A stretch of 64,000 nt of DNA, taken from contig JAGFIS010000014.1 in NCBI GenBank assembly GCA_024103425.1, positions 2,637 through 66,636 of the forward strand. The letters are read 5' to 3'. Both the position numbers and the translations under genes were made by a program. Positions 1-4,897 of this stretch are shown here, in pieces. The DNA is from Chitinophagaceae bacterium. GTDB taxonomy: Bacteria; Bacteroidota; Bacteroidia; Chitinophagales; Chitinophagaceae. How positions within the stretch are numbered: position 1 is the first letter of the stretch; each line of letters opens with the position of its first letter. Under the pieces are notes generated by a model that was given only the letters and a program-made list of their open reading frames with translations, was not told the origin of the DNA and did not search any database.

Positions 1-468
1 TTCCCTGATTTCTCTCATGTCTTGCACCTCTTTTTCGAGGTCGTATTCTGTACCGTCGATCAGGTGTTCGCAGAGGCGAACTGCCGATTTTGCCGCATAA
101 ACACCCACGTCTTCCTCCATATAATCGAAGATGACGAAGTACTCGCCGGGCTTCCCCGTTCCTCTCGTTCTTCCGAAACCCATATCCATCCCTGCAAGGG
201 TCTGCAACTCAAGCGCTACGTGCTCGATGACGTGGCCCATCCAGGTGCCTTCTTCCACTCTTTTGAAGAATCCGCCCGGCACACCTTCACTGCATCTGTG
301 TTGATACAGGCCGGGAAGCAAAGCTTCTAACCGTTCTCTGAAACCTGCGATTTTGTTGGTGGGTCTTTCTTCTAAATCTTCAAGGTCCAGGGTCATCTGG
401 ATGAGCTTGGGCCTCCGGATACTCCAATAATTTGGACCACGAAGCACTCTGATGTTTACGATCTTCAT
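1..468 (-). CDS. cphA: Cyanophycin synthetase, N-terminal part (runs off the window start; not in the ORF track)
   Basis: Manual translation from the ATG at 468: MKIVNIRVLRGPNYWSIRRPKLIQMTLDLEDLEERPTNKIAGFRERLEALLPGLYQHRCSEGVPGGFFKRVEEGTWMGHVIEHVALELQTLAG. This is the characteristic CphA N-terminus, open to position 1 and divergent from a cyanophycinase. Confidence 0.9.
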   Translation of the reverse strand, partial: MKIVNIRVLRGPNYWSIRRPKLIQMTLDLEDLEERPTNKIAGFRERLEALLPGLYQHRCSEGVPGGFFKRVEEGTWMGHVIEHVALELQTLAGMDMGFGRTRGTGKPGEYFVIFDYMEEDVGVYAAKSAVRLCEHLIDGTEYDLEKEVQDMREIRE

Positions 469-636
469 TCTGAGATATTTGTTGTGGAAAAGTTTGCGGG
501 TAGAAAAATAAGAAAGAATGAAAATCTTTTCAAATAAATATTTTTTACACAATGCTTTCCTGCAGATTCCGTTACATTTGTGACTAACCTTATATAAACG
601 GAAAATACCGGCTTTGTTTCATCAAATGAAATTTTC

Positions 637-1545
637 ATGGAAGGACCTCGCGGAAAACTATTTTCAATCGGAGGAGCAGAAGATAAAGGAGTAGATTTAG
701 AGAAAGGAAAAATAGAAAGAAACAACCTCAATTTTTTTGAACTGGGCATCCTGCGCAGGCTGGTTGAAGAAGCCGGCGGAACCGAGAAGCGGATAGAAGT
801 GATTACCACGGCATCGATGATGCCCGTGGAAGTTGGTGAAAACTATCTGAATGCCTTTGGAAAGATCGGCTGTACGAATATTGGGGTGCTGCCTATCCGT
901 AACCGGACTGATGCCATGAAAGAAGAATACGTTGAGCGCATCAGAAAATGCGATGCGGTGATGTTCAGCGGCGGTAACCAGTTGCGGCTGACTTCCTGCT
1001 TCGGCGGGACGGAATTTTTGGCGATTATCCAGAACAGATATTTGAATGAAGACGGCTTCCTGATCGGCGGCACATCTGCCGGCGGTATGGCTATGAGCAA
1101 TACCATGATTTATGAGGGGAATGCTTCTACGGCTCACTTGAAAGGCCAGGTAAAGCTGACAACCGGACTGGCATTTATGAAGGATGTCATCTTCGATAGC
1201 CATTTCGAAAAGCGTGGAAGATTCGGTCGTTTGGCTCAGGCTGTAGCGAGCAATCCTTCGGCAATCGGAATCGGATTGGGTGAAGATACGGGTATGCTTA
1301 TTCGTGAAGGCAATATTATGGAAGCTGTTGGCAGCGGGCTCGTTGTAATTATTGACGGCCACGACATCCGCCATAATAACATTGCTGATATTCCAGATGG
1401 CAACCCGATAAGCGTAGAGAATATCAAGGTGCATTTTTGCGAAAAAGGAAATGGATACCTTGTCAAAGAGAGGAAATTCATCACCGATATTTCGGCCTAC
1501 CTCGAAAGGTATGAGGAGGAAGAGGTTAAAGCAAAGGCTAAATAA
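637..1545 (+). CDS. cphB: Cyanophycinase (peptidase S51)
   Basis: IGGAEDK, FSGGNQ, GTSAG nucleophile elbow, DSHF and GIGLGEDTG motifs; adjacent to cphA. Confidence 0.9.
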   Translation: MEGPRGKLFSIGGAEDKGVDLEKGKIERNNLNFFELGILRRLVEEAGGTEKRIEVITTASMMPVEVGENYLNAFGKIGCTNIGVLPIRNRTDAMKEEYVERIRKCDAVMFSGGNQLRLTSCFGGTEFLAIIQNRYLNEDGFLIGGTSAGGMAMSNTMIYEGNASTAHLKGQVKLTTGLAFMKDVIFDSHFEKRGRFGRLAQAVASNPSAIGIGLGEDTGMLIREGNIMEAVGSGLVVIIDGHDIRHNNIADIPDGNPISVENIKVHFCEKGNGYLVKERKFITDISAYLERYEEEEVKAKAK

Positions 1546-1554
1546 CCATATCTG

Positions 1555-2664
1555 TTACGTAGGATTTTTCTTCAAGACCTCATACAATAATTGTTGCTGT
1601 TTAATATAGATCGGGTCTTTTTCGCCTCTTACCATCCTTACAAAATTGATGTACCCCTTAAGGCGATTAATGAATGTTGCCTTCTGGCCTTCAGAAGGTT
1701 GCCTGTTTAATTTGAAATGTTTTTTTGCTGCTGATTCAGGACCGTTGACAGAGAGGTCATGCAGCATAGCCCTGATTTTCTTCAGTAATTTTCTGTCAAC
1801 ATTTATTTTATTATTTACTGTAAGGCCGGTTACTGTCTGCTTCCTGCCCGCATTGCGTACCCTCAGTTTTTTCTCATTGATAGCGAAATCATTTTTTCTG
1901 ATCTCATTGATGATATCCAGAATAAGGTCGGTAGATATGTGTTCTTTAGAGGAGAAAGTAAGGTCGTCAGCATAGCGCGAGTAGGAGAGTCCATGAAGAA
2001 AGGAAAATGCTTTCAGTTCCTTGTCTAACTGATAACAGATAAAATTGGATAGTACGGGAGAGCTAGGGGCTCCTGTCGGCAGATGCCCGTTGTAAGTGGT
2101 CAGCAGGGCGAGTACTGTAGCCATTTGACGGGTGAAGCCGAAGAACTCAGAGGAGAAAAGCCGGAACACTCTGTTTGCGGTAACTCGGGGGAAGAAGTCT
2201 TTCAGGTCGATGTTCAATACCGCTTTCTTTCCTGTATGTCTCTCTGCATTCGCAACGATGTTACAATTATCCTCGGTGAGGAGAGCATTGATGACAAAGC
2301 CATGAACTTCATCCGGTTTTATCCAGAAATAATAGGCCTGCAGATAATGGTTGAGCTTCTTTTGTAATTCCTTTAGTCCTTCTTCAGGAGCCAGTATTTC
2401 TCTGTATCCGCCTCTCTTTTTGGGGATTTGAAACGCTCTGTATGAAGGATAATTGATGATATGTTCCAGTTGGGACATAGGAATTTCTAAGAGACGACAA
2501 AGTTCGCCGGGAGTGCCAATCGAAAGGAAAAGAAGTGCATCCGTCTGGTATTTCTGAAACCCGGCCAGCGTGGAGGACCTGTGCTCAGGTTTCCCGAAGA
2601 AAATTTGATGCAGCCGTTTCTTTTGCATCTCAGAGATGGAGCGTATTTTTCTTACTTTCTTCAT
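1555..2664 (-). CDS. Retron-type reverse transcriptase (369 aa)
   Basis: IPKKRGGYREI, NAERH (retron region X NAxxH, aa 139-143), IDLKDFF, LPTGAPSSP, YADD (aa 231-234) and VTG (retron region Y, aa 278-280). No maturase/endonuclease or Cas1 domain seen. Confidence 0.92.
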   Translation of the reverse strand: MKKVRKIRSISEMQKKRLHQIFFGKPEHRSSTLAGFQKYQTDALLFLSIGTPGELCRLLEIPMSQLEHIINYPSYRAFQIPKKRGGYREILAPEEGLKELQKKLNHYLQAYYFWIKPDEVHGFVINALLTEDNCNIVANAERHTGKKAVLNIDLKDFFPRVTANRVFRLFSSEFFGFTRQMATVLALLTTYNGHLPTGAPSSPVLSNFICYQLDKELKAFSFLHGLSYSRYADDLTFSSKEHISTDLILDIINEIRKNDFAINEKKLRVRNAGRKQTVTGLTVNNKINVDRKLLKKIRAMLHDLSVNGPESAAKKHFKLNRQPSEGQKATFINRLKGYINFVRMVRGEKDPIYIKQQQLLYEVLKKNPT

Positions 2665-2679
2665 GGCTGATAAATAAGA

Positions 2680-2845
2680 GAGCCGCTGTCCCGATTATCT
2701 TTGAAAACTTTCGCTATTGATGAGAGCGCAGCGAAGCGAGCACCGATAGCAATAGCGGAATGACTTCGCCCGTTTTCTCATGGGTTGCAGGAACACAACC
2801 GCCTTGTCTTTACAGTTTGACAACATAATTTTAAGGCAGCGGCTC
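2680..2845 (-). ncRNA. Candidate retron ncRNA (msr-msd)
   Basis: Terminal inverted repeats GAGCCGCTG (2845-2837 on minus) and CAGCGGCTC (2688-2680). Two small msr-like stem-loops (2804-2823, 2783-2800) and a long msd-like hairpin (2709-2760). Lies directly upstream of the RT start. Confidence 0.8.
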
Positions 2846-2853
2846 AATATTTT

Positions 2854-3903
2854 TTATTCAAAAGGATTGTCTAACTCATCCAGTCTTTTTTGAATGACAA
2901 ACAAATCTCTTTTTTCTTCTTTATAATCATAGAAACAGGTAAACTCTTCATCTGCCTTCAATATCACCTTACCCGCCTTTCCGTTTCTGTTCTTTGCAAA
3001 GATGATTTCAACTTTTCTTTCCGTATCATTCCCAAATTCGTCTAAAGCATAACCGTAGTATTCGGGGCGATAGAGCAGCAGCACCTTATCTGCATCCTGC
3101 TCGATAGCGCCACTGTCTCTGAGGTCAGACGGTATCGGCCGCTGACCTGTCTGGGTGCGGTACTCGGCAGCACGGCTTAGTTGGCTTAAGGCTATGACAC
3201 ATACATTAAGGTCTCTGGCAATGTTCTTCAGTTCGCGTGTGATATAACCGATTTCTATCTCCCGGTTATGCCGGTATCTGTTGGTGCTCATCATTTGCAG
3301 ATAGTCGACTATTATCACTTCTACTCCGTTTTCCTCTGCCTGTTTCCGGCATTCATTCTTTAATGCTTGTACAGAGTAATTACAAGTGTTGTTAATAAAT
3401 ATTTTTTTATCCTGAAACTCTTTTAAAACATCTCTCAGAGATTTTGCAGCATCTTCCGGGTAGCTGCCATCCAAAATTTGATTTACGGGTATGCCTGACA
3501 GACAGGATATAAATCGCTGAGCCAAGAGTGTGTCTGAAAGGTCAAACGTAAAATACAGTACCGGTGCCCGGTCTGCAATGTTAAGTGCCAGGTTGACCAT
3601 CAGTTGTGTCTTGCCCATGGCGGGCCTGCCTCCGAGTACTACTAATTCGCCCCGGGCTAACCCGCTGTAGTTTTCATCAAAGTCTTTGAACCCGGTGGTA
3701 ATGATATCCCTCCCCTGTTCTCCCTTTTCAAGTCGTTGAATATTCTCCGCCACCAGGGTACTTATAGGAACGGATTCTCCGATTTCCTTTGCAAACAATT
3801 CGTTGTTGAGCAGCAGCTGTCTCAAATGCAGAATTAATTCTACCTCAGAAAGGGACGGGTTTTCAATCAGGTTTTCAATTCTCTTTTTAATACCGGGTGT
3901 CAT
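2854..3903 (-). CDS. DnaB-like helicase, C-terminal RecA domain only (349 aa), putative retron partner
   Basis: Walker A GRPAMGKT, Walker B IIVDYLQ, ALSQLSR, DLRDSGAIEQDAD and AKNRNG finger. Lacks the N-terminal primase-binding domain. H1a reads FTFDLS instead of FSLEMS. Confidence 0.85.
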   Translation of the reverse strand: MTPGIKKRIENLIENPSLSEVELILHLRQLLLNNELFAKEIGESVPISTLVAENIQRLEKGEQGRDIITTGFKDFDENYSGLARGELVVLGGRPAMGKTQLMVNLALNIADRAPVLYFTFDLSDTLLAQRFISCLSGIPVNQILDGSYPEDAAKSLRDVLKEFQDKKIFINNTCNYSVQALKNECRKQAEENGVEVIIVDYLQMMSTNRYRHNREIEIGYITRELKNIARDLNVCVIALSQLSRAAEYRTQTGQRPIPSDLRDSGAIEQDADKVLLLYRPEYYGYALDEFGNDTERKVEIIFAKNRNGKAGKVILKADEEFTCFYDYKEEKRDLFVIQKRLDELDNPFE

Positions 3904-4042: not shown

Positions 4043-4897
4043 TTAGAAGACCCCCTTTGCAAAGGTGTTACCCTGATTCAGATCGCCTGTTTCGAATCCT
4101 TTTTTGAACCAATACATTCTCTGTTCAGAAGTTCCATGGGTAAAGGAGTCGGGGGTTACAGTACCCTGATATTTTTTTTGCAGCCGGTCATCTCCGATGG
4201 CATTGGCAGCTTCAAGGGCTTCGCGGATGTCCTGAGCGTGGATAACATTTTTCATCTTCTGATTATAATGCGCCCATATTCCGGCGTAGAAATCGGCTTG
4301 TAACTCTAGTCTTACGCTGTATTTATTGTATTCAGTTTCTGAAACCTGTCCCCTGATTTGGTTCATCTTTTCAGTAAGACCTAGTAGATCCTGTACATGG
4401 TGCCCGATTTCGTGTGCAATAACATAGGCCATTGCAAAGTCTCCCTTTACACCGAACTCCTGCTTCAATTGTTGTGCGAAAGAGAGGTCAATATATACTT
4501 GCTTATCGGCAGGGCAATAAAATGGGCCGGTAGCCGCAGTAGCCCCGCCACATGCAGAAGTGGTACTACCTCTGAACATTACGAGGGTAGGCTCCTGATA
4601 GGTGCGCCCCATCTGGCGGAAAAGTTCGTTCCACACGTCTTCGGTATCTGCCAGTACTACTTTCACGAAGGCAGCCTCTTCTTCGTCGGCGGCCTCTTGT
4701 TCGGGGGTCATTGTAGTCTGCCCGAAACCATCCGGCGGGAAAAGCTGCTGGAGATCATTGATATCACCACCACCTAAAAAGAGTTGTGCGAAGATGAATA
4801 ACAGTCCGATGATACCGCCACCTAACGCCAATCCGCCGCCGCTGATGGCTCTCCTGTCGTCGACATTGCTGCTCTCCCTGCGTCCTTTCCAGTCCAT
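4043..4897 (-). CDS. Neutral zinc metallopeptidase (YpfJ family)
   Basis: N-terminal GRRESSNVDDRR, Gly-rich TM segment, GPFYCPAD, AHEIGHHVQ (HExxH), ELQADFYAG, FTHGTSEQR. Confidence 0.9.
   Translation of the reverse strand: MDWKGRRESSNVDDRRAISGGGLALGGGIIGLLFIFAQLFLGGGDINDLQQLFPPDGFGQTTMTPEQEAADEEEAAFVKVVLADTEDVWNELFRQMGRTYQEPTLVMFRGSTTSACGGATAATGPFYCPADKQVYIDLSFAQQLKQEFGVKGDFAMAYVIAHEIGHHVQDLLGLTEKMNQIRGQVSETEYNKYSVRLELQADFYAGIWAHYNQKMKNVIHAQDIREALEAANAIGDDRLQKKYQGTVTPDSFTHGTSEQRMYWFKKGFETGDLNQGNTFAKGVF

What the first reader, a model, noticed from the sequence alone, without database searches (positions are those of the whole stretch)
2854..3903. Truncated DnaB paralog with the catalytic Glu changed to Asp
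Seen: only ~60 aa precede the RecA fold, so the primase-binding N-terminal domain is absent, although a linker-like helix (PISTLVAENIQRLEK) remains. Walker A, Walker B, H3, H4 and the KNRNG finger are intact. H1a reads VLYFTFDLS (D121, codon 3543-3541), where replicative DnaBs have VLIFSLEM with the catalytic glutamate. Inference: a slow or ATP-trapping, ssDNA-binding DnaB mimic. It could act as a dominant-negative subunit on host or phage helicase rings, or as an msDNA-gated switch.
Basis: partly seen in the sequence, partly recalled or inferred. Interest (0 to 1): 0.65.

Follow-up and report, generated by a model that had tools for sequence, protein, structure and literature searches.

The report
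Retron partner: truncated DnaB with Asp
This gene is a shortened copy of the bacterial replication helicase DnaB whose water-activating glutamate is replaced by aspartate, and it is the fixed partner of a retron (reverse transcriptase plus template RNA), a gene combination predicted by computer in 2026 but never tested at the bench.

Summary
ORF 2854-3903(-) encodes 349 aa that align with residues 134-498 of a Bacteroidota DnaB, so the whole N-terminal (primase-binding) domain is missing. The linker helix, Walker A and B, H3, the ssDNA loop and the KNRNG finger are intact. D121 (GAC, 3541-3543) aligns with the catalytic Glu E241 of Geobacillus DnaB. All 108 true DnaBs examined have Glu. Of 92 family loci, 87 have Asp, encoded by both Asp codons.

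A full-length dnaB lies elsewhere in the genome. The paralog is rare: 1 of 400 sampled genomes of the phylum and 0 of 40 species of the same genus. It is almost always followed by a conserved ~170-nt a1/a2-flanked RNA and a retron RT (68 of 70 loci). It is therefore the accessory protein of a protease-less type XI-like retron.

That lineage, TXI_noncan_h, was described computationally in mSystems (September 2026) without mention of the active site. This scan had also noted the operon and its RNA before, on this same window.

Most likely it is a slow-turnover ATP/ssDNA ring that msDNA keeps in check and that acts as the retron effector. That mechanism is inferred, not shown. Across the wider family the position toggles between Asp and Glu, and the ATP site sometimes decays.

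The parts
2854..3903 (-). DnaB_C-only protein of 349 aa, the retron accessory and presumed effector protein
   Evidence: It is an intact ORF. Pfam gives DnaB_C at 1.4e-77. It aligns with residues 134-498 of Bacteroidota DnaB. The AlphaFold2 model has mean pLDDT 82.7, and its best Foldseek matches are DnaB structures 4esv, 6t66 and 7t22.
3724..3768 (-). Linker-helix equivalent, residues 46-60
   Evidence: The model has a helix at residues 47-60. This stretch aligns with the DnaB linker region just before the RecA core. L50 is invariant in the family.
3607..3633 (-). Walker A motif GGRPAMGKT, containing K98
   Evidence: It is invariant in alignment A1. K98 aligns with K216 of Geobacillus DnaB.
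3541..3543 (-). Codon GAC for Asp121, at the position of the DnaB catalytic glutamate
   Evidence: Supported.
3088..3129 (-). SDLRDSGAIEQDAD, the equivalent of the ssDNA-binding loop of DnaB
   Evidence: D260, L261, R262, S264 and G265 are invariant in the family. R262 and E268 are identical in all 108 true DnaBs examined. Its role in contacting ssDNA is taken from my own knowledge of the DnaB-ssDNA structure 4ESV.
2980..2997 (-). AKNRNG motif, carrying the trans-acting Lys304 and the Arg306 finger
   Evidence: K304, N305 and G308 are invariant, and R306 is present in at least 90% of sequences.
2857..2886 (-). Conserved C-terminal tail RLDELDNPFE, an acidic tail of the '...PF' type
   Evidence: R340 and E343 are invariant. 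A terminal PF is present in 70 of the family loci whose end could be read. 24 of 28 Bacteroidota replicative DnaBs, plus the host DnaB, end in the same kind of tail.
2680..2845 (-). Retron msr/msd non-coding RNA. Its parts are a1 (2835-2845), a2 (2680-2692), the msr hairpin (2783-2800), the msd stem (2750-2757 paired with 2712-2719) and a 27-nt conserved core (2721-2747).
   Evidence: A fold of the region shows the long-range stem. The intergenic length is 185-197 nt in 11 of 12 loci. Alignment and RNAalifold support the structure. A sequence profile hits 73 of 80 metagenome loci. Among 71 unique sequences the a1/a2 stem is at least 99% canonical at nine of its ten pairs (83% at the outermost), with compensatory changes at 4 pairs. 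The msd stem covaries.
1555..2664 (-). Retron reverse transcriptase of 369 aa, type XI-like and without a protease domain. NAERH lies at 2236-2250, YADD at 1963-1974 and VTG at 1825-1833.
   Evidence: Pfam gives RVT_1. The best PADLOC hit is RT-Protease_XI at 1.8e-98, covering only the RT part of that model. The motifs were located.

Best explanation
SHOWN. The gene is the first cistron of a three-part retron on the minus strand. The parts are a DnaB_C-only protein (3903-2854), a ~166-nt a1/a2-flanked msr/msd RNA (2845-2680) and a type XI-like retron RT without a protease (2664-1555). The protein derives from a Bacteroidota replicative helicase by loss of residues 1-133, which is the whole primase-binding N-terminal domain. 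It keeps the linker helix, the P-loop, Walker B, the ssDNA loop, the trans-acting Lys/Arg fingers and the acidic C-terminal '...PF' tail. Its catalytic Glu is replaced by Asp, and that Asp is maintained by selection in the close family.

INFERRED. The trans-acting fingers and the linker helix are conserved, so the protein should still form DnaB-like rings with inter-subunit ATP sites. With Asp in place of the water-activating Glu, it should bind ATP and ssDNA but turn over slowly. That would make it a clamp or switch rather than a motor. In canonical type XI retrons the effector is a fused protease, and here this protein stands in its place. In other retrons, RT-msDNA holds the effector in check. 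I therefore propose that the ring is held inactive on or by the msDNA. When a phage alters or destroys the msDNA, or meets the ring directly, the ring would be released. It would then stay locked on single-stranded DNA at replication forks, or poison helicase assembly, and so stop replication of the phage and possibly of the host.
For: Module anatomy rests.

Linkage. The RT lies directly downstream on the same strand in 13 of 13 family loci and in 55 of 57 metagenome loci with enough downstream sequence. Among Asp-type loci it is 52 of 52. The RNA is present in 73 of 80 loci, with a1/a2 covariation.

Origin and truncation are shown.

Active site. Glu is present in 108 of 108 true DnaBs and Asp in 87 of 92 family loci, encoded by both Asp codons. 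The other ATP and DNA residues are invariant. D121 corresponds to E241 of Geobacillus DnaB. A glutamate beside the attacking water defines this ATPase class (PMC8421360).

Precedent. RecA-E96D binds DNA, lacks ATPase activity and is toxic through its DNA binding (PMC6182174).

Distribution. The paralog is sporadic: 1 of 400 phylum genomes and 0 of 40 species of the genus. Its flanks differ from locus to locus and often hold defence genes such as Abi_2, AbiJ, GmrSD, type I restriction-modification genes, PLD/SNF2 and TOTE. No copy was found in 2.9 million viral contigs.

Literature. The same pairing was published as the candidate lineage TXI_noncan_h (PMC13712802).
Against: No activity, oligomeric state, msDNA production or phage phenotype has been measured for any member of the family.

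Glu-to-Asp slows many RecA-fold ATPases, but this has not been shown for DnaB.

In the wider short family the position toggles: D 97, E 23, N 4 and other residues 5 among 129 cluster representatives. The Glu-types are scattered across the tree. About 9% of representatives lack the Walker A Lys, and many have replaced the Arg finger. The hydrolysis rate therefore cannot be critical in every lineage.

In this window the module does not sit in a defence island. Its neighbours are a Zn peptidase, a cyanophycinase and ribosomal-protein genes.

The identity to the host DnaB is only 34%, so mixed rings with it are uncertain.
Confidence: 0.5

Rival explanations
1. The protein is a working motor. Asp serves adequately as the general base, and the protein is an active ring translocase or helicase. 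It might strip or unwind phage replication intermediates, or remodel the RT-msDNA complex. Asp versus Glu would only tune its speed.
For: Every other catalytic and DNA-contact residue is conserved under strong constraint. An acidic residue, D or E, is kept in about 93% of the short cluster representatives, and D and E interchange on the tree. This looks more like tuning than like inactivation.
Against: Glu is universal in the 108 true DnaBs examined. That argues Asp is not equivalent for a processive motor. The same substitution in RecA abolishes ATPase activity. Some family lineages have lost the Walker A Lys or the Arg finger entirely.
Confidence: 0.2
2. The protein is a decoy or guard. The ring imitates the C-terminal face of the host helicase, including its acidic '...PF' tail, and is displayed on msDNA as bait. 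Phage proteins that hijack or inhibit DnaB, such as helicase loaders, primases or inhibitors, would bind it. That binding would be the trigger. Toxicity would then come from the released ring or from the RT.
For: The protein is clearly derived from a Bacteroidota DnaB and keeps that helicase's C-terminal tail. The reference list of PMC13712802 cites a paper whose title reports phage helicases as triggers of another retron type. I did not read that paper.
Against: There is no evidence for any binding partner. The tail's function in Bacteroidota DnaB is itself unknown. The primase-binding domain is missing, so primases are an unlikely bait.
Confidence: 0.15
3. The protein is a biogenesis or scaffold factor. 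It helps make or stabilise msDNA, for example by holding the single-stranded template or product, and is not an effector.
For: The gene order, protein then RNA then RT, is tight, and the RNA carries a near-invariant 27-nt core. [quoted passage not shown]
Against: From my own knowledge of retron biology, in characterised retrons the RT and the RNA are sufficient for msDNA synthesis, and the accessory genes are effectors. In this lineage the protein replaces the protease effector of canonical type XI retrons.
Confidence: 0.1
4. The gene is a leftover replication helicase of a decayed plasmid or prophage, or a decaying duplicate with no function of its own.
For: Phages and plasmids often carry DnaB-family genes. 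TIGR03600 (phage_DnaB) scores 238 bits, which is below its cut-off.
Against: The family is under purifying selection. Many columns are invariant at 38-56% overall identity, and the Asp codon turns over synonymously. The gene is linked to the RT in 68 of 70 loci. No other mobile-element genes accompany it, and its RNA signature was not found in viral contigs.
Confidence: 0.03

Closest known systems
TXI_noncan_h, the candidate protease-less type XI-like retrons with separate DnaB_C proteins (PMC13712802, mSystems, Sept 2026; also a bioRxiv preprint of May 2026)
   Same: The RT scores best against type XI models but has no protease. It carries NAxxH and VTG. A DnaB_C protein is encoded next to it. 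An a1/a2-flanked RNA lies just upstream of the RT. Members occur in Bacteroidota.
   Different: The paper reports 29 loci, 20 of them with DnaB_C, mostly at offset +1 from the RT. In my sample the DnaB_C gene lies upstream of the RNA and RT in 68 of 70 loci, so the offsets may not be strand-corrected or may describe other sub-lineages. The paper says nothing about the missing N-terminal domain, the Glu-to-Asp change or the PF tail. Placement of this RT in their clade could not be checked, because no sequences from the paper are held.
Replicative helicase DnaB (for example Geobacillus DnaB with ssDNA, PDB 4ESV, and E. coli DnaB, PDB 7T22)
   Same: It shares the RecA-type C-terminal domain, the linker helix, Walker A and B, H3, the ssDNA loop and the Lys/Arg fingers. 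Identity is 30-34%, and the best Foldseek E-value is 1e-25.
   Different: It lacks residues 1-133, the N-terminal domain. It has Asp in place of the catalytic Glu. It scores below the TIGR00665 cut-off. It is a second, rare, RT-linked copy.
RecA-E96D, a laboratory mutant of a RecA-fold ATPase
   Same: The same Glu-to-Asp change at the water-activating residue of the same fold. The mutant binds DNA, lacks ATPase activity and is toxic through DNA binding (PMC6182174).
   Different: It belongs to a different protein family, forming filaments rather than rings, and it is an engineered mutant. The transfer to DnaB is by analogy only.
Toxin-antitoxin-like retrons in which RT-msDNA restrains the effector (for example retron Sen2 and Eco1; cited from my own knowledge)
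   Same: The tripartite layout of RT, msr/msd RNA and one accessory protein, and a sporadic distribution that is often close to defence genes.
   Different: The effectors known so far are nucleoside deoxyribosyltransferase-like proteins, ATPase plus HNH pairs, Toprim domains, proteases, TIR domains and two-transmembrane proteins. A DnaB-type ring has no characterised counterpart among them.
Canonical type XI retron (RT fused to a trypsin-like protease)
   Same: Its RT core gives the best PADLOC match, RT-Protease_XI at 329 bits.
   Different: The match covers only positions 6-315 of the 506-position model, so there is no protease domain. The XII (315 bits) and I-C (308 bits) models score nearly as well, so the type XI call is marginal.

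Membership tests
Replicative DNA helicase DnaB (TIGR00665 equivalog) | N-terminal primase-binding domain (PF00772) | tested here: not met
   Pfam finds no PF00772 hit. The family aligns with DnaB residues 134-498 only.
Replicative DNA helicase DnaB (TIGR00665 equivalog) | Score over the curated cut-off | tested here: not met
   The score is 279.3 bits against a cut-off of 385.25.
Replicative DNA helicase DnaB (TIGR00665 equivalog) | Catalytic glutamate after strand 2 (FS[LM]EM) | tested here: not met
   The protein has Asp121. All 108 true DnaBs examined have Glu.
Replicative DNA helicase DnaB (TIGR00665 equivalog) | RecA-type C-terminal domain with Walker A and B, H3 and the Arg finger | tested here: met
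   PF03796 scores 1.4e-77 and the motifs are invariant.
Replicative DNA helicase DnaB (TIGR00665 equivalog) | It is the genome's replicative copy | tested here: not met
   A separate 498-aa dnaB, with the N-terminal domain and a catalytic Glu, lies on contig C25.
Retron (RT + msr/msd RNA + accessory gene) | [quoted passage not shown] | tested here: met
   NAERH lies at residues 139-143, YADD at 231-234 and VTG at 278-280. PMC13712802 names NAxxH and VTG as marks of retron RTs. The top 25 PADLOC hits are all RT models, nearly all of retron types.
Retron (RT + msr/msd RNA + accessory gene) | Structured RNA upstream of the RT, flanked by a1/a2 inverted repeats | tested here: met
   The a1/a2 stem has 10 bp. 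Across 71 unique sequences nine of the ten pairs are at least 99% canonical (83% at the outermost), and 4 pairs show compensatory changes.
Retron (RT + msr/msd RNA + accessory gene) | Production of msDNA branched from a 2'-OH of a guanosine | not testable with these tools
   This needs experiment. The tool for finding sequencing runs was not available.
Retron (RT + msr/msd RNA + accessory gene) | Conserved adjacent accessory or effector gene | tested here: met
   The DnaB_C gene lies directly upstream of the RNA and RT in 68 of 70 loci.
TXI_noncan_h (PMC13712802) | Type XI-like RT without a protease domain | tested here: met
   The best PADLOC model is RT-Protease_XI, but only its RT part is matched and the protein is 369 aa long. 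The margin over the XII and I-C models is small.
TXI_noncan_h (PMC13712802) | Separate DnaB_C protein next to the RT | tested here: met
   Supported.
TXI_noncan_h (PMC13712802) | Placement inside the published monophyletic RT clade | not testable with these tools
   No supplementary sequences from the paper are held.
Canonical type XI retron | RT fused to a C-terminal trypsin-like protease | tested here: not met
   The RT is 369 aa, and Pfam finds RVT_1 only.
Divergent DnaB-like ATPases of conflict systems (PF20307 divDNAB; PADLOC mad8) | Score over the family threshold | tested here: not met
   PF20307 scores 21.8 bits against a cut-off of 26. PADLOC mad8 scores only 32 bits and covers part of the protein.

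The most novel reading that the evidence does not exclude
The protein is an immune mimic of the host's own replicative helicase. It would be a hydrolysis-attenuated DnaB ring without a primase-binding domain that keeps the host DnaB's acidic, SSB-like '...PF' tail. It would be parked on retron msDNA. It would either bait phage proteins that hijack DnaB or, once freed, lock onto fork ssDNA and stop replication. That would be a new retron effector class acting directly on the replisome rather than on NAD+, tRNA or membranes.
Probability: 0.25. Interest if true: 0.8.

Novelty: new member of a known kind. Interest (0 to 1): 0.5.

Why it matters
All characterised retron effectors destroy a metabolite or RNA, or damage the membrane. 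A ring helicase core with a weakened catalytic residue would be a different kind of effector, one that acts on DNA replication itself.

[quoted passage not shown] The features shown here turn that open question into specific bench tests. Those features are:
- a precise deletion of the primase-binding domain;
- a Glu-to-Asp change that is kept by selection;
- retained trans-acting fingers and the ssDNA loop;
- a retained helicase tail;
- near-obligate linkage to the RNA and the RT.

The tests that follow are D121E, K98A and tail-deletion variants, toxicity with and without RT plus RNA, and msDNA binding.

For this scan the finding is a confirmation with added detail, not a new system.

Tried and rejected
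1. The search for related loci on genome contigs with the family alignment. It used generic DnaB motifs and returned 78 true DnaBs and only 2 family loci. The true DnaBs were reused as the Glu/Asp control.

2. An empty-site or synteny test in species of the same genus. The Zn-peptidase orthologues have different neighbours there, with no rplM, S51 peptidase, RT or DnaB-like gene within 1.5 kb. The insertion boundaries could not be defined.

3. Base composition. The module has 43-45% GC, like its flanks, so it gives no signal of foreign origin.

4. Rfam. No known RNA family matches the intergenic RNA. The only hit, inside the coding sequence, is a chance-level ylbH match (E = 0.31).

5. Viral origin. 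The invariant 19-mer of the RNA has 0 hits in 2.9 million viral contigs. The same 19-mer is present in more than half of the family loci.

6. RT-DnaB fusions. Among the unusually long or odd representatives, P0253 is a full-length DnaB with an extension, P0258 is a tandem DnaB_C, and no fusion to an RT was found.

7. A tree of Asp/Glu states. The full-length DnaBs were not monophyletic in the quick FastTree, so no direction of change is claimed. I report only that Glu-types are scattered.

RNA or msDNA read evidence could not be sought.

9. I did not attempt a statistical test of defence-island enrichment on the 57 metagenome flanks, because it would have needed very long typed reference lists. 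Only the ten annotated contexts are used, and only qualitatively.
Full report
**1. Observation.**
The minus-strand ORF 2854-3903 encodes 349 aa. All quoted motifs are present at the stated places, and codon 3543-3541 is GAC, which is Asp121. Pfam sees only the C-terminal DnaB domain (PF03796, E = 1.4e-77, residues 68-325). The NCBIfam DnaB equivalog scores 279 bits, below its 385-bit cut-off, and aligns residues 42-328 with model positions 149-434. A global profile-profile alignment of 30 family members against 29 Bacteroidota DnaBs places family positions 1-348 on DnaB residues 134-498. In the host's own DnaB the PF00772 N-terminal domain covers about residues 30-130. The whole primase-binding domain is therefore deleted. 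At most the last hairpin helix, the linker helix and the RecA core remain. An AlphaFold2 model (mean pLDDT 82.7) shows helices at 3-13, 20-37 and 47-60 before the core. Its best Foldseek matches are DnaB structures: 4esv, which holds ssDNA, then 6t66, 9dls and 7t22, with E-values around 1e-25.

**2. The Glu-to-Asp change is real and specific.**
- A phmmer alignment against PDB chains puts K98 on K216 and D121 on E241 of Geobacillus DnaB, where 'VAIFSLEMS' corresponds to 'PVLYFTFDLS'.
- A glutamate beside the attacking water defines this ATPase class (PMC8421360).
- In the fetched loci, 108 of 108 true DnaBs carry Glu. All 14 family-type locus entries carry Asp (12 relatives plus two copies of the window's own locus). 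K98, D200, Q241, R262, E268, R279 and K304 are identical in both groups.
- In 92 family loci that are 38-56% identical to the window protein, the codon is GAT 52, GAC 35, GAA 3, GAG 1 and AAT 1. Asp is thus kept through synonymous turnover, which indicates selection rather than recent accident.
- The host DnaB (498 aa, 34% identical over residues 177-498) has FSLEMS at this position.

**3. Caveat from the wider family.**
A profile search of 1.84 billion cluster representatives lists about 129 short proteins (under 400 aa) among the best 150. At the catalytic position they show D 97, E 23, N 4 and G/K/R/S 5. The Walker A Lys is present in 118 of 129, and the Arg finger is often K, N, S or T. 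In a quick tree the Glu-types are scattered among the Asp-types. Some short Glu-types may be fragments of true DnaBs, so 23 is an upper bound. The carboxylate is usually kept, with Asp preferred, but the ATP site is under looser constraint than in replicative DnaB.

**4.
- A full-length dnaB exists on contig C25. It scores 345 bits against PF03796 and 107 bits against PF00772, and its ORF is 498 aa.
- The family is not a widespread stand-alone one. Among 400 other genomes sampled from the phylum, only one (G183, 349 bits) has it. All the others show only their replicative DnaB, at 200 bits or less with open frames of 470-580 aa.
- None of 40 other species of the genus has it, although only 17 of these are at least 90% complete.

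**5. What the gene belongs to.**
On the same strand, 189 nt downstream, lies a 369-aa RT (1555-2664). Its best PADLOC matches are retron RT models: RT-Protease_XI at 329 bits (RT part only), then XII at 315 bits and I-C at 308 bits. It carries NAERH, YADD and VTG, and PMC13712802 names NAxxH and VTG as marks of retron RTs.

The intergenic RNA folds with a long-range stem, GAGCCGCUGCC (2845-2835) paired with GGGACAGCGGCUC (2692-2680), which ends 15 nt before the RT start codon.

From the DnaB side, linkage to the RT is almost complete:
- All 13 family members examined individually have an RVT_1 gene directly downstream.
- The spacer is 185-197 nt in 11 of 12 loci.
- In 80 further metagenome loci, 52 of 52 Asp-type loci with at least 700 nt of downstream sequence have the RT. 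So do 2 of 4 Glu-type loci and the single Asn-type locus.
- The exceptions are decayed modules or too short to judge. L154 keeps an RT remnant. L182 keeps the RNA but has lost the RT. L201 has only 715 nt of downstream sequence.

A sequence profile of the RNA hits 73 of 80 loci immediately after the DnaB-like stop codon. Among 71 unique RNAs, nine of the ten a1/a2 pairs are at least 99% canonical (83% at the outermost) and four pairs show compensatory changes. The msr hairpin GGUUGU/GCAACC has one compensatory pair. A near-invariant 27-nt core is enclosed by an 8-10-bp stem whose sequence differs between loci while its complementarity is kept.

**6. Literature.**
PMC13712802 (mSystems, 11 Sept 2026; also a bioRxiv preprint of May 2026) describes exactly this pairing as the candidate lineage TXI_noncan_h. 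It reports 29 loci, 20 of them with DnaB_C, an a1/a2-type RNA 22-104 bp upstream of the RT, and an AlphaFold/Foldseek match to E. coli DnaB. [quoted passage not shown] The paper contains no occurrence of 'Walker', 'glutamate' or 'catalytic'. As far as the searched library shows, the missing N-terminal domain, the Glu-to-Asp change and the tail are not yet described. The paper places DnaB_C mostly at offset +1, whereas I find it upstream of the RNA and RT in 68 of 70 loci.

This scan had also flagged the operon and its RNA earlier, on this same window. I had found the paper before reading those notes.

**7. Context.**
The flanks differ at every locus and often hold defence or conflict genes. 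Examples are Abi_2 with an HSDR_N-domain protein and a PLD/SNF2 helicase, GmrSD, AbiJ, a type I restriction-modification HsdR, TOTE domains and large DEAD or AAA helicases. In this window the neighbours are housekeeping genes: a Zn peptidase, an S51 peptidase and the rplM-rpsI-rpsB-tsf genes. The GC content of the module matches its flanks. The RNA's invariant 19-mer is absent from 2.9 million viral contigs but present in more than half of the family loci. The module is therefore a chromosomal, horizontally scattered element and not a common phage gene.

**8. Mechanism.**
What is shown is the anatomy, the linkage and the selection on the protein.

What is inferred is the following:
- The trans-acting K304/R306 fingers and the linker helix serve only in an oligomer, so ring formation is expected.
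- The invariant SDLR(D/E)SG loop argues for ssDNA binding.
- Asp in place of the water-activating Glu should slow hydrolysis. The same change in RecA (E96D) gives a protein that binds DNA, lacks ATPase activity and kills cells through DNA binding (PMC6182174).
- The protein occupies the place of the protease effector of canonical type XI retrons.

From my own knowledge, characterised retrons work as RT-msDNA-restrained toxins. I therefore favour a slow-turnover ssDNA/ATP ring that msDNA restrains and that blocks replication when it is released.

The rivals are a tuned but active motor, a DnaB decoy that baits phage replication proteins, a biogenesis or scaffold factor, and a functionless relic. 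The relic reading is essentially excluded.

**9. Verdict.**
- The system is a new member of a kind that so far has only been predicted by computer.
- The active-site and tail features are new details that make that kind testable.

Noticed in passing
L004:394-1890 (host dnaB, contig C25) and loci L087-L114: Replicative DnaBs of this phylum end in an acidic tail with a terminal '...(D/E)(D/E)xPF'. This holds for 24 of 28 examined and for the host copy. The tail resembles the C-terminal tip of SSB, a resemblance I recall from my own knowledge. The retron paralogs keep a terminal PF in 70 of the family loci whose end could be read. The partner of this tail is unknown.
   Followed up: partly
window 2721-2747 (-), and the same columns in alignment A2: A near-invariant 27-nt core (consensus TGCGATGCTCACTTCGTTCCGCTTCTC) sits in the loop of the covarying msd stem. 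Its centre reads CTTCG, CTGCG or CTACG in different loci. In the cDNA these become C-GAA-G, C-GCA-G and C-GTA-G, which all fit a C-GNA-G mini-hairpin. This extends an earlier scan note on GCGAAGC in this window.
   Followed up: partly
L182:1376-3889: This is a Glu-type member of the truncated DnaB family with a full copy of the retron RNA (2488-2673) but no RT. A 240-aa protein with a phosphoribosyltransferase domain follows about 500 nt after the RNA (685 nt after the DnaB-like stop). PRTase is an effector type of type III retrons, which I recall from my own knowledge. The locus may be a decayed or rearranged module.
   Followed up: partly
L154:2926-5632: This is a Glu-type member of 392 aa, followed by only a 57-aa RT remnant (68% identical to RT residues 70-126) and then an AAA_14/DUF4143 ATPase gene. 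It looks like a retron module in decay.
   Followed up: partly
PMC13712802 compared with loci L005-L211: The published survey places DnaB_C mostly downstream of the RT (offset +1 in 14 of 20 loci). In 68 of 70 loci examined here it is upstream, in the order DnaB_C, RNA, RT. Either the published offsets are not strand-corrected, or other sub-lineages (Bacillota) are arranged differently.
   Followed up: no
window 1-1545: The retron is flanked on its RT side by a convergent S51 peptidase gene (637-1545 +; Pfam Peptidase_S51, the family that holds cyanophycinase). Beyond it lies the start of a gene (1-552 -, running off the window) that I guessed might be a cyanophycin synthetase, but this was not checked with any tool. 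On the other side lie a Zn metallopeptidase gene (4043-4897 -) and the rplM-rpsI-rpsB-tsf genes. This is a housekeeping neighbourhood and not a defence island.
   Followed up: no
P0269 (454 aa) and P0258 (573 aa): P0269 has Asp at the catalytic position (FTLDTS) and a 165-aa N-terminus with no PF00772 hit. P0258 is a tandem double DnaB_C with Ala at that position. Both are further DnaB-core variants with altered active sites, outside the retron-linked size class.
   Followed up: no
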